The translations under genes and the position numbers were made by a program. Below, piece by piece: positions 16,340 to 26,967 of a stretch of DNA of 34,486 nt; the stretch's first letter is position 1, and the number at the start of each line of letters is the position of its first letter. The notes below the pieces were generated by a model. It made no database searches, was not told the DNA's origin, and worked only from the letters and a program-made list of their open reading frames with translations. The stretch lies in IMG/VR virus record IMGVR_UViG_2645727868_000009. One strand, 5' to 3'. Source of the stretch: a virus. Taxonomy: Duplodnaviria; Heunggongvirae; Uroviricota; Caudoviricetes.

Positions 16340-16356
16340 AGGGTGTTCAGCACCCT
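16340..16356. promoter_or_regulatory. Palindromic motif AGGGTG-TTCAG-CACCCT upstream of gene I (copy 1 of a shared element)
   Basis: Perfect 6-bp arms with 5-bp spacer; embedded in a 29-bp block (16328-16356) that recurs at 24488-24516. Confidence 0.5.
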
Positions 16357-21450: not shown

Positions 21451-22191
21451 TCACACCTGCGCTGCTTCTGCCTGCGCTTTTTCGATACGTGCGCAGGCGA
21501 TATCAAAATACTGGTTAGTCATTTCAATGCCGGTAAACCGTCCGCCACGGGCAAGTACCGGGATGGCGGTGGTGCCGCTTCCCATAAACGGATCGAGAAC
21601 GTGCGCATCCGGTGCCAGCGGTTTAACCAGCTCGGCCATCAGCTGAACCGGCTTTGCGGTCATGTGCAGTTTTTCGGACGGGACAACACGCTGCGTAATC
21701 ACACCCGGGAACGGGCCACCGTGCGGACATTTGTCGAGTTTTCCGTTGCTGCCCCAGACCACATACTCGGCCTGATGCCGGAAATAGCCGGTGTGTGGCG
21801 CACGGGAAGCCTGCGTTTTATCCCAGACAACAAGACCACGCCACAGCACACCACCGGCCTGAAAAACGTCGGTCATGGTGGGAAGCTGTCGCCAGTCACT
21901 GAACACCATGACATAACCACCGGGGCGCACAAGGCGGGCAGCCCCGGACATCCACAGGGTGCTCCAGTATGCCCAGCTGCGCTGGTCGCGGTTATCCCCG
22001 CTGAACTCGGCATACTGGGTGTGACCGACATACTTGTCCGAAGGGGCCATGCTGCGGTCTGATTTATGTGTGCCACCACTGCTGTAAGGCGGGTCGGTAA
22101 TGACGGCATCAAAACGTTCGGATAACGCCGGCAGCACATCAAGAACATCACCGCAATACAACGTTGCGTTACCAATAATCTGTTTTTGCAT
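21451..22191 (-). CDS. DNA methyltransferase (beta-class N6-adenine/N4-cytosine type)
   Basis: 246-aa ORF, ATG start. DPPY catalytic motif near N-terminus (VITDPPYSSGG) and FMGSGTT AdoMet-binding motif near C-terminus, i.e. motif IV before motif I. No neighbouring restriction endonuclease. Confidence 0.85.
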   Translation of the reverse strand: MQKQIIGNATLYCGDVLDVLPALSERFDAVITDPPYSSGGTHKSDRSMAPSDKYVGHTQYAEFSGDNRDQRSWAYWSTLWMSGAARLVRPGGYVMVFSDWRQLPTMTDVFQAGGVLWRGLVVWDKTQASRAPHTGYFRHQAEYVVWGSNGKLDKCPHGGPFPGVITQRVVPSEKLHMTAKPVQLMAELVKPLAPDAHVLDPFMGSGTTAIPVLARGGRFTGIEMTNQYFDIACARIEKAQAEAAQV

Positions 22192-22980: not shown

Positions 22981-23147
22981 TGCCGGATGCCGTCAATAAT
23001 CCGGCAGACCTGCGCCGCCGCGTCTAACAGCTGTCCCGTTCTGTTAATGTCTGTGCATCCCACCGGAAGCAACATCACCAGAAACAGGGCCAGAACACAG
23101 CGCGCGGCTTTACGTGGCGTTCTGTGGGTCCAGTGCTGACGCGTCAT
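22965..23147 (-). CDS. Putative small lipoprotein of the lysis cassette
   Basis: 60-aa ORF; ATG overlaps endolysin stop (ATGA); basic N-terminus then hydrophobic stretch ending LLPVGC (imperfect lipobox). Confidence 0.4.
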   Translation of the reverse strand: MTRQHWTHRTPRKAARCVLALFLVMLLPVGCTDINRTGQLLDAAAQVCRIIDGIRQCSQN

Positions 23148-23689
23148 ATCGCCACGCGCTCCTTCAGCCAGCCATAAACAAACGATTCGTTAGCCTCGCG
23201 TTTCTCCGCCAGTTCCAGATAGCGGTCCCCCTGCGTACAGTTCAGGGCCGTCAGCATCACCCGTTCACCGTCCTGACCGCGATTATTCAGGAAGGCGCGC
23301 AATGCACTGATGGTACGAGGCCCGATGCGTCCGTCTGCGTCCATATCCGGGTACAGCCTGCCGCGCAGATTGAACACATTCAGCCAGCGCTGAAGCATTC
23401 TGGACGCCACGGTTGGCCCCATATTCACACCGGTATCACACAGCTCTGCGGCAATATCAGGGGATAATGCGGCGACCTGGTCGAATCGCGGACCGTACCA
23501 GTAATCGGCTTCAAGGATGTCCAGCGCCTGCTCGCGGGTTAAATCGCGCATATCACCACGGTATCCGTGGGCACGGGCGACTTTTTCCGTAATGCCCCAT
23601 TTGGTCGGACCGCCCTTATCATCCGGGTGATTGACATAACCACCTTCTTTGCCCAGGACTTCATCAAAAATTTTATCTTTTGATTTCAT
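23144..23689 (-). CDS. Endolysin (GH108-like muramidase with peptidoglycan-binding C-terminal domain)
   Basis: 181-aa ORF, ATG start with GAGG upstream; N-terminal EGGYVNHPDDKGGPTKWGIT motif typical of GH108-family phage lysozymes. Confidence 0.75.
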   Translation of the reverse strand: MKSKDKIFDEVLGKEGGYVNHPDDKGGPTKWGITEKVARAHGYRGDMRDLTREQALDILEADYWYGPRFDQVAALSPDIAAELCDTGVNMGPTVASRMLQRWLNVFNLRGRLYPDMDADGRIGPRTISALRAFLNNRGQDGERVMLTALNCTQGDRYLELAEKREANESFVYGWLKERVAI

Positions 23690-24351: not shown

Positions 24352-24497
24352 GAGTTTCTCCTGTAAATCTGAGCCACTGACGGCCCGTAAATAACACCCG
24401 GTCAAAGGCACAGAATGACTTTTGCCGGGCGCTATCCCTTAAGGTGCCTTGTGGTCTGAGTGGACAGGGTAAACGGTATGCTGTGGTGGGTACTGCT

Positions 24498-24516
24498 GGG
24501 GGTGTTCAGCACCCCC
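24498..24516. promoter_or_regulatory. Palindromic motif GGGGGTG-TTCAG-CACCCCC upstream of the lysis genes (copy 2)
   Basis: Perfect 7-bp arms, same TTCAG spacer and same upstream GGGTACTG block as copy 1; located between the 95-aa gene stop and the holin start. Confidence 0.5.
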
Positions 24517-24539
24517 GGCAGGTTGATTATCTGGATGGG

Positions 24540-24827
24540 TTAAAGAGAAGCGAGTTTTAATGGTGGCTTATAACATGCCCGCGCCAGCAGGTTAGCTCTT
24601 TCCACGGCATTACGCATTTCCCGTTCTGCGTCAATCATTCTGTTTACGGCTGACAGCACTTCATCATGATTCGTTACTGATTCCGGGCTTTGGGCCTGTT
24701 TCGCCAGGTAACTGGATAAACTGCACATTTCAGCATGTCGGCGACGGGCTGCATCCCGGGCCTTGTCTGAAAATGCGGTATATTCACCGAGTACTGCATA
24801 GTCGATATCGGTGTCAGAACGCATCAT
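24540..24827 (-). CDS. Hypothetical protein
   Basis: 95-aa ORF with ATGATG start and strong RBS (AAGGAGA, 7 nt spacer); between Mor/C gene and lysis genes. Confidence 0.5.
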   Translation of the reverse strand: MMRSDTDIDYAVLGEYTAFSDKARDAARRRHAEMCSLSSYLAKQAQSPESVTNHDEVLSAVNRMIDAEREMRNAVERANLLARACYKPPLKLASL

Positions 24828-24854: not shown

Positions 24855-25322
24855 TTAATCAAAAAGCCCCACCTGGGTGGGGCTTTTCAGCGAAGTCTGT
24901 TTTTGTCGTCGGTGTATCAGTTGCCATGCGTACCGGTCTGAAATGCCGTAACGGGGACAGAGCAGTGCCAGCGCCTGCCGGTGTGAGCATCCGCCTTTTA
25001 CATGCTGCTGTAAATCAGCCATAAAACGGGTGTTACGCAGGGCACGTAACGCATGATCGCAACGGGGAATGTAAAACGGTGCGCCGCCAAGAAAACGGAT
25101 CAGTTTGTTGATTTCGTCTTCGGTCAGCACGTCATGTAACAGGGCATGGACACCGCCGGTGCGTTCGGCGTGTACGCCGGTTTTACCGCTTAACGTCACG
25201 CCACCAAAAGAACGAATCAACCGGGTCAGGGCGGGGAAGCCAATCACGCTAATCAGTTGCTGCACGGAATCGGGCAGCAGTGCCTGCGCATCGCGAAGAT
25301 CTGTTTCACTGAAGGTCTGCAT
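24855..25322 (-). CDS. Mor/C-family transcriptional activator
   Basis: 155-aa ORF, ATG start with GGAGA RBS; contains the GGxxxYIPR motif (FLGGAPFYIPR) and C-terminal helix-turn-helix-like segment characteristic of Mu Mor/C activators. Confidence 0.8.
   Translation of the reverse strand: MQTFSETDLRDAQALLPDSVQQLISVIGFPALTRLIRSFGGVTLSGKTGVHAERTGGVHALLHDVLTEDEINKLIRFLGGAPFYIPRCDHALRALRNTRFMADLQQHVKGGCSHRQALALLCPRYGISDRYAWQLIHRRQKQTSLKSPTQVGLFD
24861..24887 (-). terminator. Bidirectional terminator-like hairpin overlapping the Mor/C stop codon
   Basis: Perfect GC-rich inverted repeat GCCCCACC/GGTGGGGC flanked by AAAAA on one side and TTTT on the other; the minus-strand U-tract precedes the stop. 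Confidence 0.5.
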
Positions 25323-25351: not shown

Positions 25352-25357
25352 ATTATA
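25352..25357 (-). promoter_or_regulatory. Candidate -10 hexamer of a promoter for the Mor/C-family gene
   Basis: Perfect TATAAT on the minus strand 30 nt upstream of the Mor/C ATG, with a poor -35 region (CTGTAC at 17-bp spacing) and the terminator dyad just upstream. Confidence 0.4.
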
Positions 25358-25384
25358 GCCATACATGATCGCCTGTACAGACCA

Positions 25385-25409
25385 TAAAAAACCTCCGCGT
25401 TTGCGAAGG
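25385..25409 (-). terminator. Rho-independent terminator after the secreted-protein gene
   Basis: Minus-strand RNA forms a 7-bp stem with one G-U pair (CCUUCGC-AAAC-GCGGAGG) followed by UUUUUU; lies 13 nt after the stop at 25422. Confidence 0.6.
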
Positions 25410-25421
25410 TTTTTGTTCATA

Positions 25422-25760
25422 TTATTTTTTATTCTCGTTTATCAACACCAGGTATCCTCTGACATACTCCCATACTTTCTGGTTATCTGTTGGATGCACT
25501 TTTCGACAATCTATGGCTTCATTTCCATAATCGCCAATGTCAGCTTGGGCTTGTGTTAAGAGAATAACCTTCCTGAGAGCGCATCCTCTGATGGTATCCT
25601 TTGAAATATCATCCCAGCCATTCATGTATGAATAAGCCAGATTACGTTGTGCCTGATAATCGCCCTGTAATGTTTTTTTGACCAAATCTTCCTCTGAATC
25701 AGAAGCATGGGATATCCCTGTAAAACATAAAGTCAGAATAAGTAATAACAGTTTTTTCAT
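25422..25760 (-). CDS. Secreted/periplasmic hypothetical protein
   Basis: 112-aa ORF, ATG start with AAGGAGA RBS; N-terminal signal peptide (MKKLLLLILTLCFTGISHA); followed by an intrinsic terminator. Confidence 0.55.
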   Translation of the reverse strand: MKKLLLLILTLCFTGISHASDSEEDLVKKTLQGDYQAQRNLAYSYMNGWDDISKDTIRGCALRKVILLTQAQADIGDYGNEAIDCRKVHPTDNQKVWEYVRGYLVLINENKK

Positions 25761-26152
25761 TTACGTCTCCTTGAATCTTTAACCAGCGCCACCATCACTC
25801 CAAAAAGCTGTTCATCCGTCAGCCATTCGATCACATGTTGCTTATACATGTGAGATGCCAGTCCTTCTGCATACGCCCAGGAACGACCGGCATCAGCCAG
25901 CAACGCTTCAATTTTGGATAATACTGATTTTCTGCTCATTGCAACACGAGGGCGGCGACCTTTACCAGCGGGTGCCTTGCGCGGGAATCCCTGTTCGTGC
26001 ATGTATTCCCGGATGATGCGCAGTTCATCGAGATTGCAGCGTGTGGTGCTGGTTTTACCGGTCAGGCGGGCCAGCGTCTGGCGATAAAGGGCATCATCCC
26101 ACCCCAGATACGCCTGACCAGCTTTAATGGCCCCGATCATCTTTTTCAGCAT
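25757..26152 (-). CDS. gemA: GemA-like protein (Mu gp16-like)
   Basis: Start set to ATG at 26150-26152 (GAGGA 8 nt upstream); track ORF extends to 26251 via non-ATG start. Sequence YLGWDDALYRQTLARLTGKTS...LRIIREYMHEQGF recalled as GemA/DUF1018-like; location just upstream of Mor/C gene as in Mu. Confidence 0.65.
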   Translation of the reverse strand: MLKKMIGAIKAGQAYLGWDDALYRQTLARLTGKTSTTRCNLDELRIIREYMHEQGFPRKAPAGKGRRPRVAMSRKSVLSKIEALLADAGRSWAYAEGLASHMYKQHVIEWLTDEQLFGVMVALVKDSRRRK

Positions 26153-26556: not shown

Positions 26557-26967
26557 TCAGTATGTGAAATAGACAGTTGCCACGCCGTTATAGTGATCAA
26601 ACGACACGGCGTTTACCTCATAACTGGCCGGTAGCTTCGAGCCAAGAACGTATCCGGGCCACGTTTTCCATGGAATTTCTCTGCTCCCACTGTCGCCATA
26701 TACCGTACATCCCAGTGAGCCTACAGCTTCATAAGAACGCTTACCGCACGTTATGAATCCCAGATTTTGCTTACTGCTCTTAATGGTGATTGAGTGAACG
26801 CTGGCTGATGCATTAGCAGCACGCTGTGCCTGTTGGTTTGCGATATTCGCAGAGTTCGCAGCAGCTACAGCAGCCGTAGTCGCGGCGGTAGAGGCTACAA
26901 TAGCTGCTGAAGCATGCACTTGTTGGATATTCACCAACAATGCCGCGATAAAAATCATCTTCTTCAC
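26557..26967 (-). CDS. Secreted hypothetical protein
   Basis: 136-aa ORF; GTG start at 26965-26967 with AAGGAG 7 nt upstream (alternative ATG at 26958); signal peptide, Ala/Asn-rich low-complexity linker, Cys-containing C-terminal domain. Confidence 0.5.
   Translation of the reverse strand: MKKMIFIAALLVNIQQVHASAAIVASTAATTAAVAAANSANIANQQAQRAANASASVHSITIKSSKQNLGFITCGKRSYEAVGSLGCTVYGDSGSREIPWKTWPGYVLGSKLPASYEVNAVSFDHYNGVATVYFTY

What the first reader, a model, noticed from the sequence alone, without database searches (positions are those of the whole stretch)
25422..25760. Secreted protein gene with its own terminator between gemA and the activator gene
A 112-aa protein with a clear Sec-type signal peptide and strong RBS is inserted between gemA and the Mor/C gene and is closed off by an intrinsic terminator. 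A periplasmic protein has no obvious role in phage regulation at this position. Together with the second signal-peptide protein at 26557-26967 it is a candidate lysogenic-conversion or superinfection-exclusion factor.
Basis: inference. Interest (0 to 1): 0.45.

Follow-up and report, generated by a model that had tools for sequence, protein, structure and literature searches.

The report
Swappable exported-protein gene in Mu-like prophage
This is a real small gene for an exported helical-repeat protein, sitting in a slot of an E. coli Mu-like prophage where related phages carry other exported proteins or nothing, so it is optional phage cargo of unknown function and not part of the phage's regulatory circuit.

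Summary
On the minus strand (25760→25422) lies a 112-aa ORF with an AAGGAG ribosome-binding site, a Sec-type signal peptide (predicted cleavage after SHA19) and a downstream hairpin plus U-tract.

It is under purifying selection (dN/dS 0.23–0.35). Its GC is 0.38 against 0.52 in the flanks.

The mature 93-aa protein is predicted with confidence as a two-repeat Sel1-like (SLR) helical domain with two invariant cysteines. No Pfam, NCBIfam or PADLOC family covers it; its PHROG family has no assigned function.

The gemA–mor slot is swappable. Among 58 E. coli genomes with this gemA, 13 carry this gene and 23 carry an unrelated 159-aa exported protein. One examined genome (M8) carries a third exported protein of 174 aa. 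All three genomes examined from the remaining group have an empty slot.

Every state keeps a terminator just before a conserved mor promoter-like site, so the terminator belongs to the backbone position.

This copy has no promoter of its own: its ATG overlaps the gemA stop (ATGA). It should therefore be made with the early lytic operon, which weakens the lysogenic-conversion idea.

Relatives recur in several different slots of Mu-like phages. Function is inferred only; a periplasmic binder that protects the envelope is most likely.

The parts
25422..25760 (-). ORF of 112 aa (stop codon 25424→25422): precursor of an exported mini Sel1-like-repeat protein
   Evidence: phrog_5882 E 1.9e-57 with unknown function; dN/dS 0.23-0.35; RefSeq WP_029392799.1 'hypothetical protein' in the identical locus
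25704..25760 (-). Codons 1-19: Sec (SPase I) signal peptide MKKLLLLILTLCFTGISHA, predicted cleavage before Ser20
   Evidence: Read directly from the sequence; pattern conserved in homologues; pLDDT <50 for residues 1-18; 55 of 55 wider family members in viral contigs have a hydrophobic N-terminus, although start codons were chosen with that in mind
25425..25703 (-). Mature 93-aa domain: five helices (23-31, 35-47, 56-69, 75-86, 90-111), SLR motif LQGDYQAQRNLAYSY, invariant Cys60 and Cys85 on neighbouring helices
25767..25772 (-). Shine-Dalgarno AAGGAG, 6 nt upstream of the ATG, embedded in the last codons of gemA
   Evidence: the 159-aa cassette of E2348/69 is coupled to the same gemA tail plus RBS
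25757..26152 (-). gemA (gp16 family); its TGA overlaps the ATG of the ORF (ATGA), implying co-transcription and translational coupling
   Evidence: Pfam GemA E 1.5e-18; coordinates
25386..25414 (-). Intrinsic terminator: A5-CCUUCGC-AAAC-GCGGAGG-U6. Positional equivalent of the early-operon terminator found in all slot variants
   Evidence: z -4.3; empty slot and other cassettes carry AGCC(C/T)CTGCC-nTG-CAGGGGCTTTTTT at the same place; downstream terminators in nearly all homologous loci
25384..25766 (-). Approximate extent of the low-GC exchangeable cassette (spacer + ORF + terminator) between the shared gemA tail/RBS and the shared GGTCTGTACAGG block
   Evidence: Window compared with L003, L057 and L059; GC 0.38-0.39 against 0.52-0.53 in flanks
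25352..25379 (-). Promoter-like TGTACA-16 nt-TATAAT immediately after the terminator and 30 nt before mor; conserved in every slot state
   Evidence: 10 of 12 matches; conserved sequence
24855..25322 (-). mor-family late activator, the downstream neighbour
   Evidence: Pfam Mor E 1.6e-6; phrog_836 'late transcriptional activator' 3.5e-42

Best explanation
SHOWN. The gene is an optional, horizontally exchanged cassette. It occupies a hot-swappable slot at the 3' end of the early operon of an E. coli Mu-like prophage, between gemA and the terminator that precedes the mor promoter-like site. It has no promoter of its own and is coupled to gemA (ATGA). It encodes a precursor with a Sec signal peptide. 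The mature 93-aa part is predicted to be a compact two-repeat Sel1-like (SLR) helical domain with two invariant cysteines on neighbouring helices.

INFERRED. It is transcribed with the early lytic genes on induction or infection, and at most at a basal level in the lysogen. It is exported by Sec, cleaved after Ala19 and probably disulfide-stapled in the periplasm. There it acts as a binder, not an enzyme.

MOST LIKELY ROLE (about one chance in three). It sequesters or masks a periplasm-exposed component so that the cell making phage is shielded from incoming attack. The chief candidate is exclusion of superinfecting (especially Mu-like) phages at the DNA-entry step. This is the same logic as the early-expressed T4 Sp/Imm and T5 Llp (established knowledge, not tested here). 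The anatomy and the cargo status are secure (about 0.9). The stated confidence refers to the functional mechanism.
For: Anatomy.

Cargo status: this gemA occurs in 58 of 5426 complete E. coli genomes. Thirteen carry this cassette and 23 carry an unrelated 159-aa exported protein. One examined genome (M8) carries a 174-aa exported protein. All 3 examined from the remaining group have an empty slot, with gemA followed directly by terminator, promoter-like site and mor. GC is 0.38 against 0.52.

Extracytoplasmic family: nearly all of 150 distant relatives, and 55 of 55 viral copies, start with a signal peptide, lipobox or membrane anchor.

Link to Mu-like phages: all of about 50 close loci have the order GemA-SLR-(0-1 gene)-Mor. 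Of 56 more distant viral loci, at least 35 carry Mu-like hallmarks. There the gene sits in other slots: after mor, between repressor and lysis genes, or between tape measure and gp43.

Purifying selection.
Against: No experiment and no homology to any protein of known exclusion or defence function (PADLOC none, PHROG 'unknown', BFVD nothing significant).

Expression timing is deduced from the sequence only.

The three cassette types that share the slot are unrelated folds (SLR, four-helix bundle, and an unmodelled third). The slot may therefore simply tolerate any small exported protein.

Family members also occur in ordinary chromosomal contexts in alpha- and beta-proteobacteria. That argues for a general envelope function, not a phage-specific target.

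The enrichment in Mu-like phages was not measured against a proper background.
Confidence: 0.33

Rival explanations
1. Orphan immunity protein. The periplasmic SLR domain binds and neutralises a periplasm-acting toxin delivered by competitors (a T6SS effector, bacteriocin or tailocin component), so the prophage protects its host.
For: SLR proteins are documented T6SS immunity proteins: Tli5b1-3 against PldB in P. aeruginosa (PMC13133936) and Sel1E against VgrG4 in Klebsiella (PMC7108748). The family is extracytoplasmic and also occurs in chromosomes.
Against: No effector gene lies next to any copy examined. The known immunity SLRs are several-fold larger multi-repeat proteins. The Tli5b structure 5jkp was not among the profile hits up to E 10. 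This copy lacks a promoter for constitutive expression, which an immunity protein would need.
Confidence: 0.15
2. Helper of the phage's own lytic cycle. The periplasmic protein tunes envelope or peptidoglycan state or lysis timing, for example by buffering murein hydrolase activity or spanin action until the proper time.
For: In many relatives the gene lies directly next to the lysis cassette: Mor-SLR-GH19 or holin; repressor-SLR-holin-SLT; SLR-GH19. In the window it is two genes upstream of the holins. It would be made before lysis.
Against: The same backbone exists without it (empty slot), so it is not needed for lysis. It co-occurs with four unrelated endolysin types (GH108, GH19, SLT, amidase), which argues against a specific enzyme-inhibitor pair. 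The window endolysin has no signal or SAR sequence. Copies in the tail module and in chromosomes do not fit.
Confidence: 0.15
3. Classic lysogenic-conversion factor expressed from the repressed prophage that changes host fitness or host-animal interaction, as for SLR proteins LpnE, HcpA and EsiB/c5321.
For: Pasteurellaceae copies are bracketed by terminators and preceded by a conserved weak promoter-like element. The best structural matches include virulence-associated SLR proteins. Many host strains are animal or human isolates.
Against: The window copy has no own promoter (ATGA overlap; one search finds none). The family is widespread in environmental proteobacteria and their phages. With only two repeats and periplasmic retention, there is no obvious route to the cell surface.
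Confidence: 0.07
4. Neutral hitch-hiker: a gene fragment (last SLR repeat plus C-terminal cap) carried along by recombination, with no function in this phage.
For: The slot tolerates unrelated inserts and being empty. The profile aligns best to the C-terminal repeat and cap of larger SLR proteins.
Against: dN/dS is 0.23-0.35. Core residues are invariant across 38-59% identical homologues. An intact signal peptide, RBS and a confident fold are retained in all copies.
Confidence: 0.05

Closest known systems
Phage 'morons' (Hendrix/Juhala concept: extra gene between two genes that are adjacent in related phages, with deviant composition, own promoter and terminator)
   Same: Sits between gemA and mor, which are adjacent in related prophages. 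GC 0.38 against 0.52. Followed by a terminator. Dispensable and exchanged among phages of Enterobacteriaceae and Pasteurellaceae.
   Different: No own promoter in this copy; it is translationally coupled to gemA. The terminator occupies a position that the backbone always fills. The slot behaves like a cassette-exchange site with at least three alternative exported-protein genes.
Sel1-like repeat (SLR) proteins, e.g. Legionella LpnE (6deh), E. coli c5321/EsiB (4bwr), Vibrio SflA periplasmic domain (6if6)
   Different: Only about two repeats in 93 aa. Below the Pfam Sel1 threshold (15.5 against 30.7 bits). Own conserved core (GCAxRK, GDYGNE, two invariant Cys). No Pfam or NCBIfam family.
Mannheimia phage vB_MhM_3927AP2 gp15 (NC_028766 7972-8319)
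   Same: The only homologue in a cultured, sequenced phage (38% identity). Same position after gemA, with terminators annotated on both sides.
   Different: Separated from mor by two further genes. Separated from gemA by a terminator. Annotated only as hypothetical, and not discussed in the paper (PMC4553209).
Early-expressed envelope-located superinfection-exclusion proteins (T4 Sp/Imm, T5 Llp; from established knowledge)
   Same: Small exported protein predicted to be made early in the lytic programme. Dispensable for growth.
   Different: No sequence or fold relationship was found. No phenotype is known. Llp is a lipoprotein, and this protein has no lipobox.
SLR immunity proteins of T6SS effectors (Tli5b/PA5086-88, Klebsiella Sel1E)
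   Same: SLR fold used to neutralise a partner by binding.
   Different: Those proteins are much larger and are encoded beside their effector. Neither holds here.

Membership tests
Sec/SPase I signal peptide | Basic n-region, 7-15 residue hydrophobic h-region, small residues at -3/-1 of the cleavage site | tested here: met
   MKK / LLLLILTLCFTGI / SHA|SD by inspection. Conserved in homologues. Disordered in the AF2 model. No dedicated predictor was available.
Bacterial lipoprotein (SPase II) | Lipobox [LVI][ASTVI][GAS]C | tested here: not met
   The only N-terminal Cys (C12) is preceded by L-T-L; Leu at -1 violates the lipobox.
Sel1-like repeat family (Pfam PF08238) | Match to the Sel1 profile at the curated threshold | tested here: not met
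   15.5 bits against a cut-off of 30.7, E 0.026, one repeat at aa 36-59.
Sel1-like repeat family (Pfam PF08238) | SLR helix-pair solenoid fold and profile-level homology to solved SLR proteins | tested here: met
   [not shown]
Sel1-like repeat family (Pfam PF08238) | Tandem array of several (usually 3 or more) repeats | tested here: not met
   Five helices, about two repeats plus a capping helix in 93 aa.
Cysteine-stapled SLR proteins (Helicobacter Hcp type) | Disulfide between the two helices of a repeat | tested here: inconclusive
   Cys60 (helix 56-69) and Cys85 (helix 75-86) are invariant or nearly so.
Phage moron | Lies between genes that are adjacent in related phages | tested here: met
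   Empty gemA-mor junction in STEC346, C5 and E423.
Phage moron | Nucleotide composition deviates from the flanks | tested here: met
   GC 0.38-0.39 against 0.52-0.53.
Phage moron | Own promoter allowing expression from the repressed prophage | tested here: not met
   ATGA overlap with gemA. No sigma-70-like site upstream on this strand. Only a weak, suggestive TTGnnn-16/17-TAAATT in Pasteurellaceae copies.
Phage moron | Own terminator | tested here: met
   Hairpin plus U6, z -4.3. However, a terminator is present at this position in all slot states.
Known superinfection-exclusion / anti-phage defence proteins | Homology to a described exclusion or defence protein | tested here: not met
   PADLOC no hit. 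PHROG families carry no function. BFVD gives nothing with E<0.5.
Known superinfection-exclusion / anti-phage defence proteins | Reduces infection by a challenging phage when expressed | not testable with these tools
   Needs plating and DNA-entry assays.
T6SS SLR immunity proteins (Tli5b, Sel1E) | Encoded adjacent to the cognate effector | tested here: not met
   Neighbours are phage genes or unrelated chromosomal genes in every locus inspected.

The most novel reading that the evidence does not exclude
The mini-SLR domain is a dedicated, recurrent accessory of transposable (Mu-like) phages. Different lineages have placed it independently at the ends of different transcription units: after gemA, after mor, before the lysis genes, and between tape measure and gp43. 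It would act as a new kind of periplasmic anti-entry or envelope-protection factor, for instance by binding a conserved periplasm-traversing part of Mu-type tails. The gemA-mor slot would then be a cassette-exchange site specialised for such exported protective proteins.
Probability: 0.2. Interest if true: 0.6.

Novelty: new member of a known kind. Interest (0 to 1): 0.35.

Why it matters
Mu-like prophages are common in enterobacteria and Pasteurellaceae, but their accessory genes are almost unstudied.

This work defines a precise exchange slot. It lies between gemA and the early terminator/mor promoter-like site. In one closely related E. coli prophage lineage it holds three unrelated exported proteins, or nothing.

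It also defines an uncharacterised extracytoplasmic two-repeat SLR family: about 400 representative clusters, with no Pfam entry. That family turns up repeatedly in transposable phages.

If the protein proves to block phage entry or periplasm-acting toxins, it would add a new small protective module and explain why the slot favours exported proteins. If it does nothing detectable, the slot is still a clean natural example of cassette exchange at an operon end. It would also be a convenient site for engineering cargo into Mu-like phages.

Tried and rejected
- Megablast of the region against 50,697 phage records found no match. tblastn found only Mannheimia phage 3927AP2.
- Pfam, NCBIfam and PADLOC scans of the protein, of distant relatives and of multi-domain relatives gave no curated family and no informative N-terminal domains.
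- Foldseek against viral structures (BFVD) gave nothing significant. The afdb50 library was not available.
- Rfam on the whole window gave no RNA family.
- The simple terminator scan missed both minus-strand terminators, so folding was used instead.
- I looked for a terminator after the second signal-peptide gene; it was not convincing (z -1.5).
- Literature searches for SLR plus prophage or exclusion, and for Mu-like morons with signal peptides, found no paper on this gene or slot.
- 'Lipoprotein' and 'not a gene' were considered and rejected.
- A specific endolysin-inhibitor role was considered and judged unlikely, because the gene co-occurs with four endolysin types and the backbone exists without it.

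Full report
**1. What is in the sequence**

The feature is on the minus strand. The ORF runs 25760→25422 and encodes 112 aa. AAGGAG (25772→25767) lies 6 nt before the ATG. The ATG overlaps the TGA of the upstream gene as ATGA.

That upstream gene is gemA (Pfam GemA, E 1.5e-18). The downstream gene, 24855-25322, belongs to the Mor family (Pfam 1.6e-6; phrog_836 'late transcriptional activator', 3.5e-42).

The N-terminus MKK-LLLLILTLCFTGI-SHA|SD has the three regions of an SPase I signal peptide. There is no lipobox.

Seven nucleotides after the stop comes A5-CCUUCGC-AAAC-GCGGAGG-U6 (25414→25386). The 71-nt fold has dG -21.5 kcal/mol and z -4.3, and none of 200 shuffles folds as well. The simple terminator scanner did not report it.

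GC drops to 0.39 over the gene, against about 0.53 on both sides.

**2. It is a real, conserved gene**

The locus is 100% identical to a prophage in several complete E. coli genomes, where the gene is annotated as a hypothetical protein.

Copies at 96% and 84% protein identity give dN/dS of 0.35 and 0.23.

A word-indexed search found only 9 clusters: E. coli, Citrobacter, Rodentibacter and metagenomes. An exhaustive profile search found 409 representative clusters at E<=1e-3, of which 122 were at E<=1e-10.

In these relatives the roughly 85-aa core stands alone or forms the C-terminus of larger proteins. The core motifs are LxGDYQAQRNLAY, GCAWRK, D.GN and a second Cys. Nearly all relatives begin with a signal peptide, lipobox or membrane anchor.

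No Pfam, NCBIfam or PADLOC family covers them. There is only a sub-threshold Sel1 hit.

**3. Fold**

AlphaFold2 on the 10-sequence alignment gives mean pLDDT 85. The signal peptide scores below 50 and the mature part above 90. The model has five helices.

A broader family profile hits SLR chains in PDB sequences at E 2e-5 to 1.4e-3. It aligns best to the last repeat plus the C-terminal cap.

The two invariant cysteines, C60 and C85, lie on adjacent helices. This fits a periplasmic disulfide, but I could not measure the distance.

The product is thus a two-repeat SLR module. This is a protein-binding fold and has no catalytic signature.

**4. The slot**

This gemA occurs in 58 of 5426 complete E. 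coli genomes. The slot states are:
- 13 genomes carry the SLR cassette.
- 23 carry an unrelated 159-aa gene, in two subtypes about 77% identical in DNA.
- One examined genome (M8) carries a third gene of 174 aa. Four others share its alignment boundary but were not inspected.
- All three genomes I inspected from the remaining group have an empty slot. There gemA is followed directly by a terminator, the promoter-like site and mor.

All three alternative genes start with a signal peptide: MMKKWLFCLVGVIFSCSALA|Q for the 159-aa gene and VKSKIINSIIIGSLLLSTPVFA|D for the 174-aa gene.

The 159-aa gene uses the same gemA tail, RBS and overlapping start as the SLR gene. It occupies the same slot in a Yersinia prophage.

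Every state keeps a hairpin plus U-tract immediately before the conserved block GGTCTGTACAGGCGATCATGTATGGCTATAAT. This block reads as TGTACA-16-TATAAT, 10 of 12 matches. The terminator is therefore a property of the position, namely the end of the early transcription unit ahead of mor. It is not a private feature of this gene. Its sequence does differ here from the backbone version. The Citrobacter-type SLR copy uses the backbone-like one.

**5. Relatives elsewhere**

All of about 50 loci recovered with the close alignment show GemA → SLR → (0-1 extra gene) → Mor. They come from E. coli, Citrobacter, Rodentibacter, Haemophilus, IMG/VR and a Mannheimia phage.

In the Pasteurellaceae copies the gene's GC matches the host phage (0.36-0.41 against 0.41-0.43). 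In E. coli it does not. This suggests the E. coli copy was imported from a low-GC phage.

The Pasteurellaceae copies are separated from gemA by about 66 nt. That spacer contains a hairpin plus U-tract, AAAGGCTCC-TAT-GGAGCCTTTTTT. The scanner also finds it, and it is annotated as a terminator in the Mannheimia phage.

A TAAATT hexamer abuts the hairpin, with TTG 16-17 nt upstream in 11 of 12 distinct loci. The spacer sequence between them varies. If this is a weak promoter, its transcripts would start inside the left arm of the hairpin and so escape that terminator. That would be an insulated autonomous unit. I regard this as suggestive only, since each hexamer matches the consensus at 3-4 of 6 positions.

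With a broader profile, 56 further viral loci were found. At least 35 have Mu-like hallmark genes within 6 kb. In these the gene sits in other places:
- Directly after mor, with a 10-12 nt gap, and before the lysis genes.
- Between a repressor-like HTH gene and holin-SLT.
- Directly before a GH19 endolysin.
- Between the tape measure and the gp43-like DNA-circulation gene, sometimes on the opposite strand.

Two relatives are in ordinary chromosomal neighbourhoods.

The family is thus recurrent cargo of transposable phages, typically at the end of a transcription unit. It is not a fixed component of one pathway.

**6. How it most likely works**

Shown: the anatomy, the exchangeability, the exported SLR fold and purifying selection.

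Inferred: in this prophage the gene is the last cistron of the early operon. It would be produced after induction or infection and is not a constitutive lysogen product. It is exported, cleaved after Ala19 and disulfide-stabilised, and it binds a periplasm-exposed partner.

I rank the possible roles as follows:
- Protection of the phage-producing cell against incoming phages, i.e. exclusion at entry: about 0.33.
- Orphan immunity to periplasm-acting toxins: 0.15. The precedents are Tli5b and Sel1E.
- Helper of the phage's own lysis or envelope programme: 0.15.
- Classic lysogenic conversion or host interaction: 0.07.
- No function: 0.05.
- The remainder is something not considered.

The lysis-helper idea is weakened in two ways. 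The backbone exists without the gene, and the gene co-occurs with four unrelated endolysin types. The immunity idea is weakened by the absence of any neighbouring effector and by the lack of a promoter here.

**7. Comparison with what is known**

The gene meets the moron criteria of position, composition and terminator. It fails the promoter criterion in this copy.

It has the SLR fold and profile-level homology. It fails the Pfam threshold and the multi-repeat architecture.

It has no relationship to described exclusion or defence proteins. No paper found deals with it. The Mannheimia phage paper lists its homologue only as hypothetical.

**8. Verdict**

This is an ordinary kind of thing: accessory prophage cargo encoding a small exported protein. 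It belongs to an uncharacterised family, and it sits in an unusually clean cassette-exchange slot that repeatedly holds exported proteins.

The reading as 'candidate exclusion or conversion factor' is reasonable for exclusion. The architecture of this copy speaks against expression in the lysogen.

Noticed in passing
window 26557-26967 (-): The second signal-peptide ORF (136 aa, MKKMIFIAALLVNIQQVHA|SAA; phrog_8805, unknown function) is also variable cargo. It is present in L001, L004 and L060 but absent from L002, L003 and L057-L059. No convincing terminator follows it (z -1.5). No family hit in Pfam, NCBIfam or PADLOC.
   Followed up: partly
window 25352-25379 (-): A near-consensus sigma-70-like site (TGTACA-16-TATAAT) lies directly after the early terminator and 30 nt before mor. 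It is conserved in all slot states. The late activator therefore seems to have its own promoter behind a terminator. In Mu itself, mor is the last gene of the early transcript (my recollection, not checked). How such a promoter is kept silent in the lysogen is unexplained.
   Followed up: partly
window 24493-24521 (also 4424-4434 and 16340-16350, minus strand): A palindrome CTGCCGGGGGTGCTGAACACCCCCAGCAG lies upstream of the holin genes. The motif CTGAAC(A/C)CCC recurs between the SLR gene and the lysis genes in L061, L073-L079 and L083. One-mismatch copies lie just upstream of, or at the start of, two other minus-strand genes in the window (5 matches against 2.0 expected). This is a candidate Mor-dependent late-promoter element.
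   Followed up: partly
window 24540-24827 (-): A 95-aa non-exported ORF (phrog_7152, unknown function) follows mor. It occupies the post-mor slot that holds the SLR gene in other Mu-like phages (L061, L073-L077).
   Followed up: no
window 24862-24890 (-): A strong hairpin plus U-tract (GCCCCACC-CAG-GTGGGGC-UUUUU) overlaps the last codons of mor. It looks like a terminator at the end of the mor gene, just before the 95-aa ORF.
   Followed up: no
L006 5935-6000 and equivalents in L005, L013, L016, L017, L024, L029, L032, L039, L043, L054: In Pasteurellaceae Mu-like phages the gemA-SLR spacer holds a terminator hairpin. Its 5' arm directly abuts a conserved TAAATT, with TTG 16-17 nt upstream. A transcript started there would lack the left arm and escape termination.
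   Followed up: partly
window 21451-22191 (-) and 23144-23689 (-): There is other modular variation among close relatives. A DNA methyltransferase between DUF1804 and terL is present here and in L001 and L129 but absent in L002. The GH108 endolysin here is replaced by an M15 peptidase in L002 and L058.
   Followed up: no
[not shown]
   Followed up: partly
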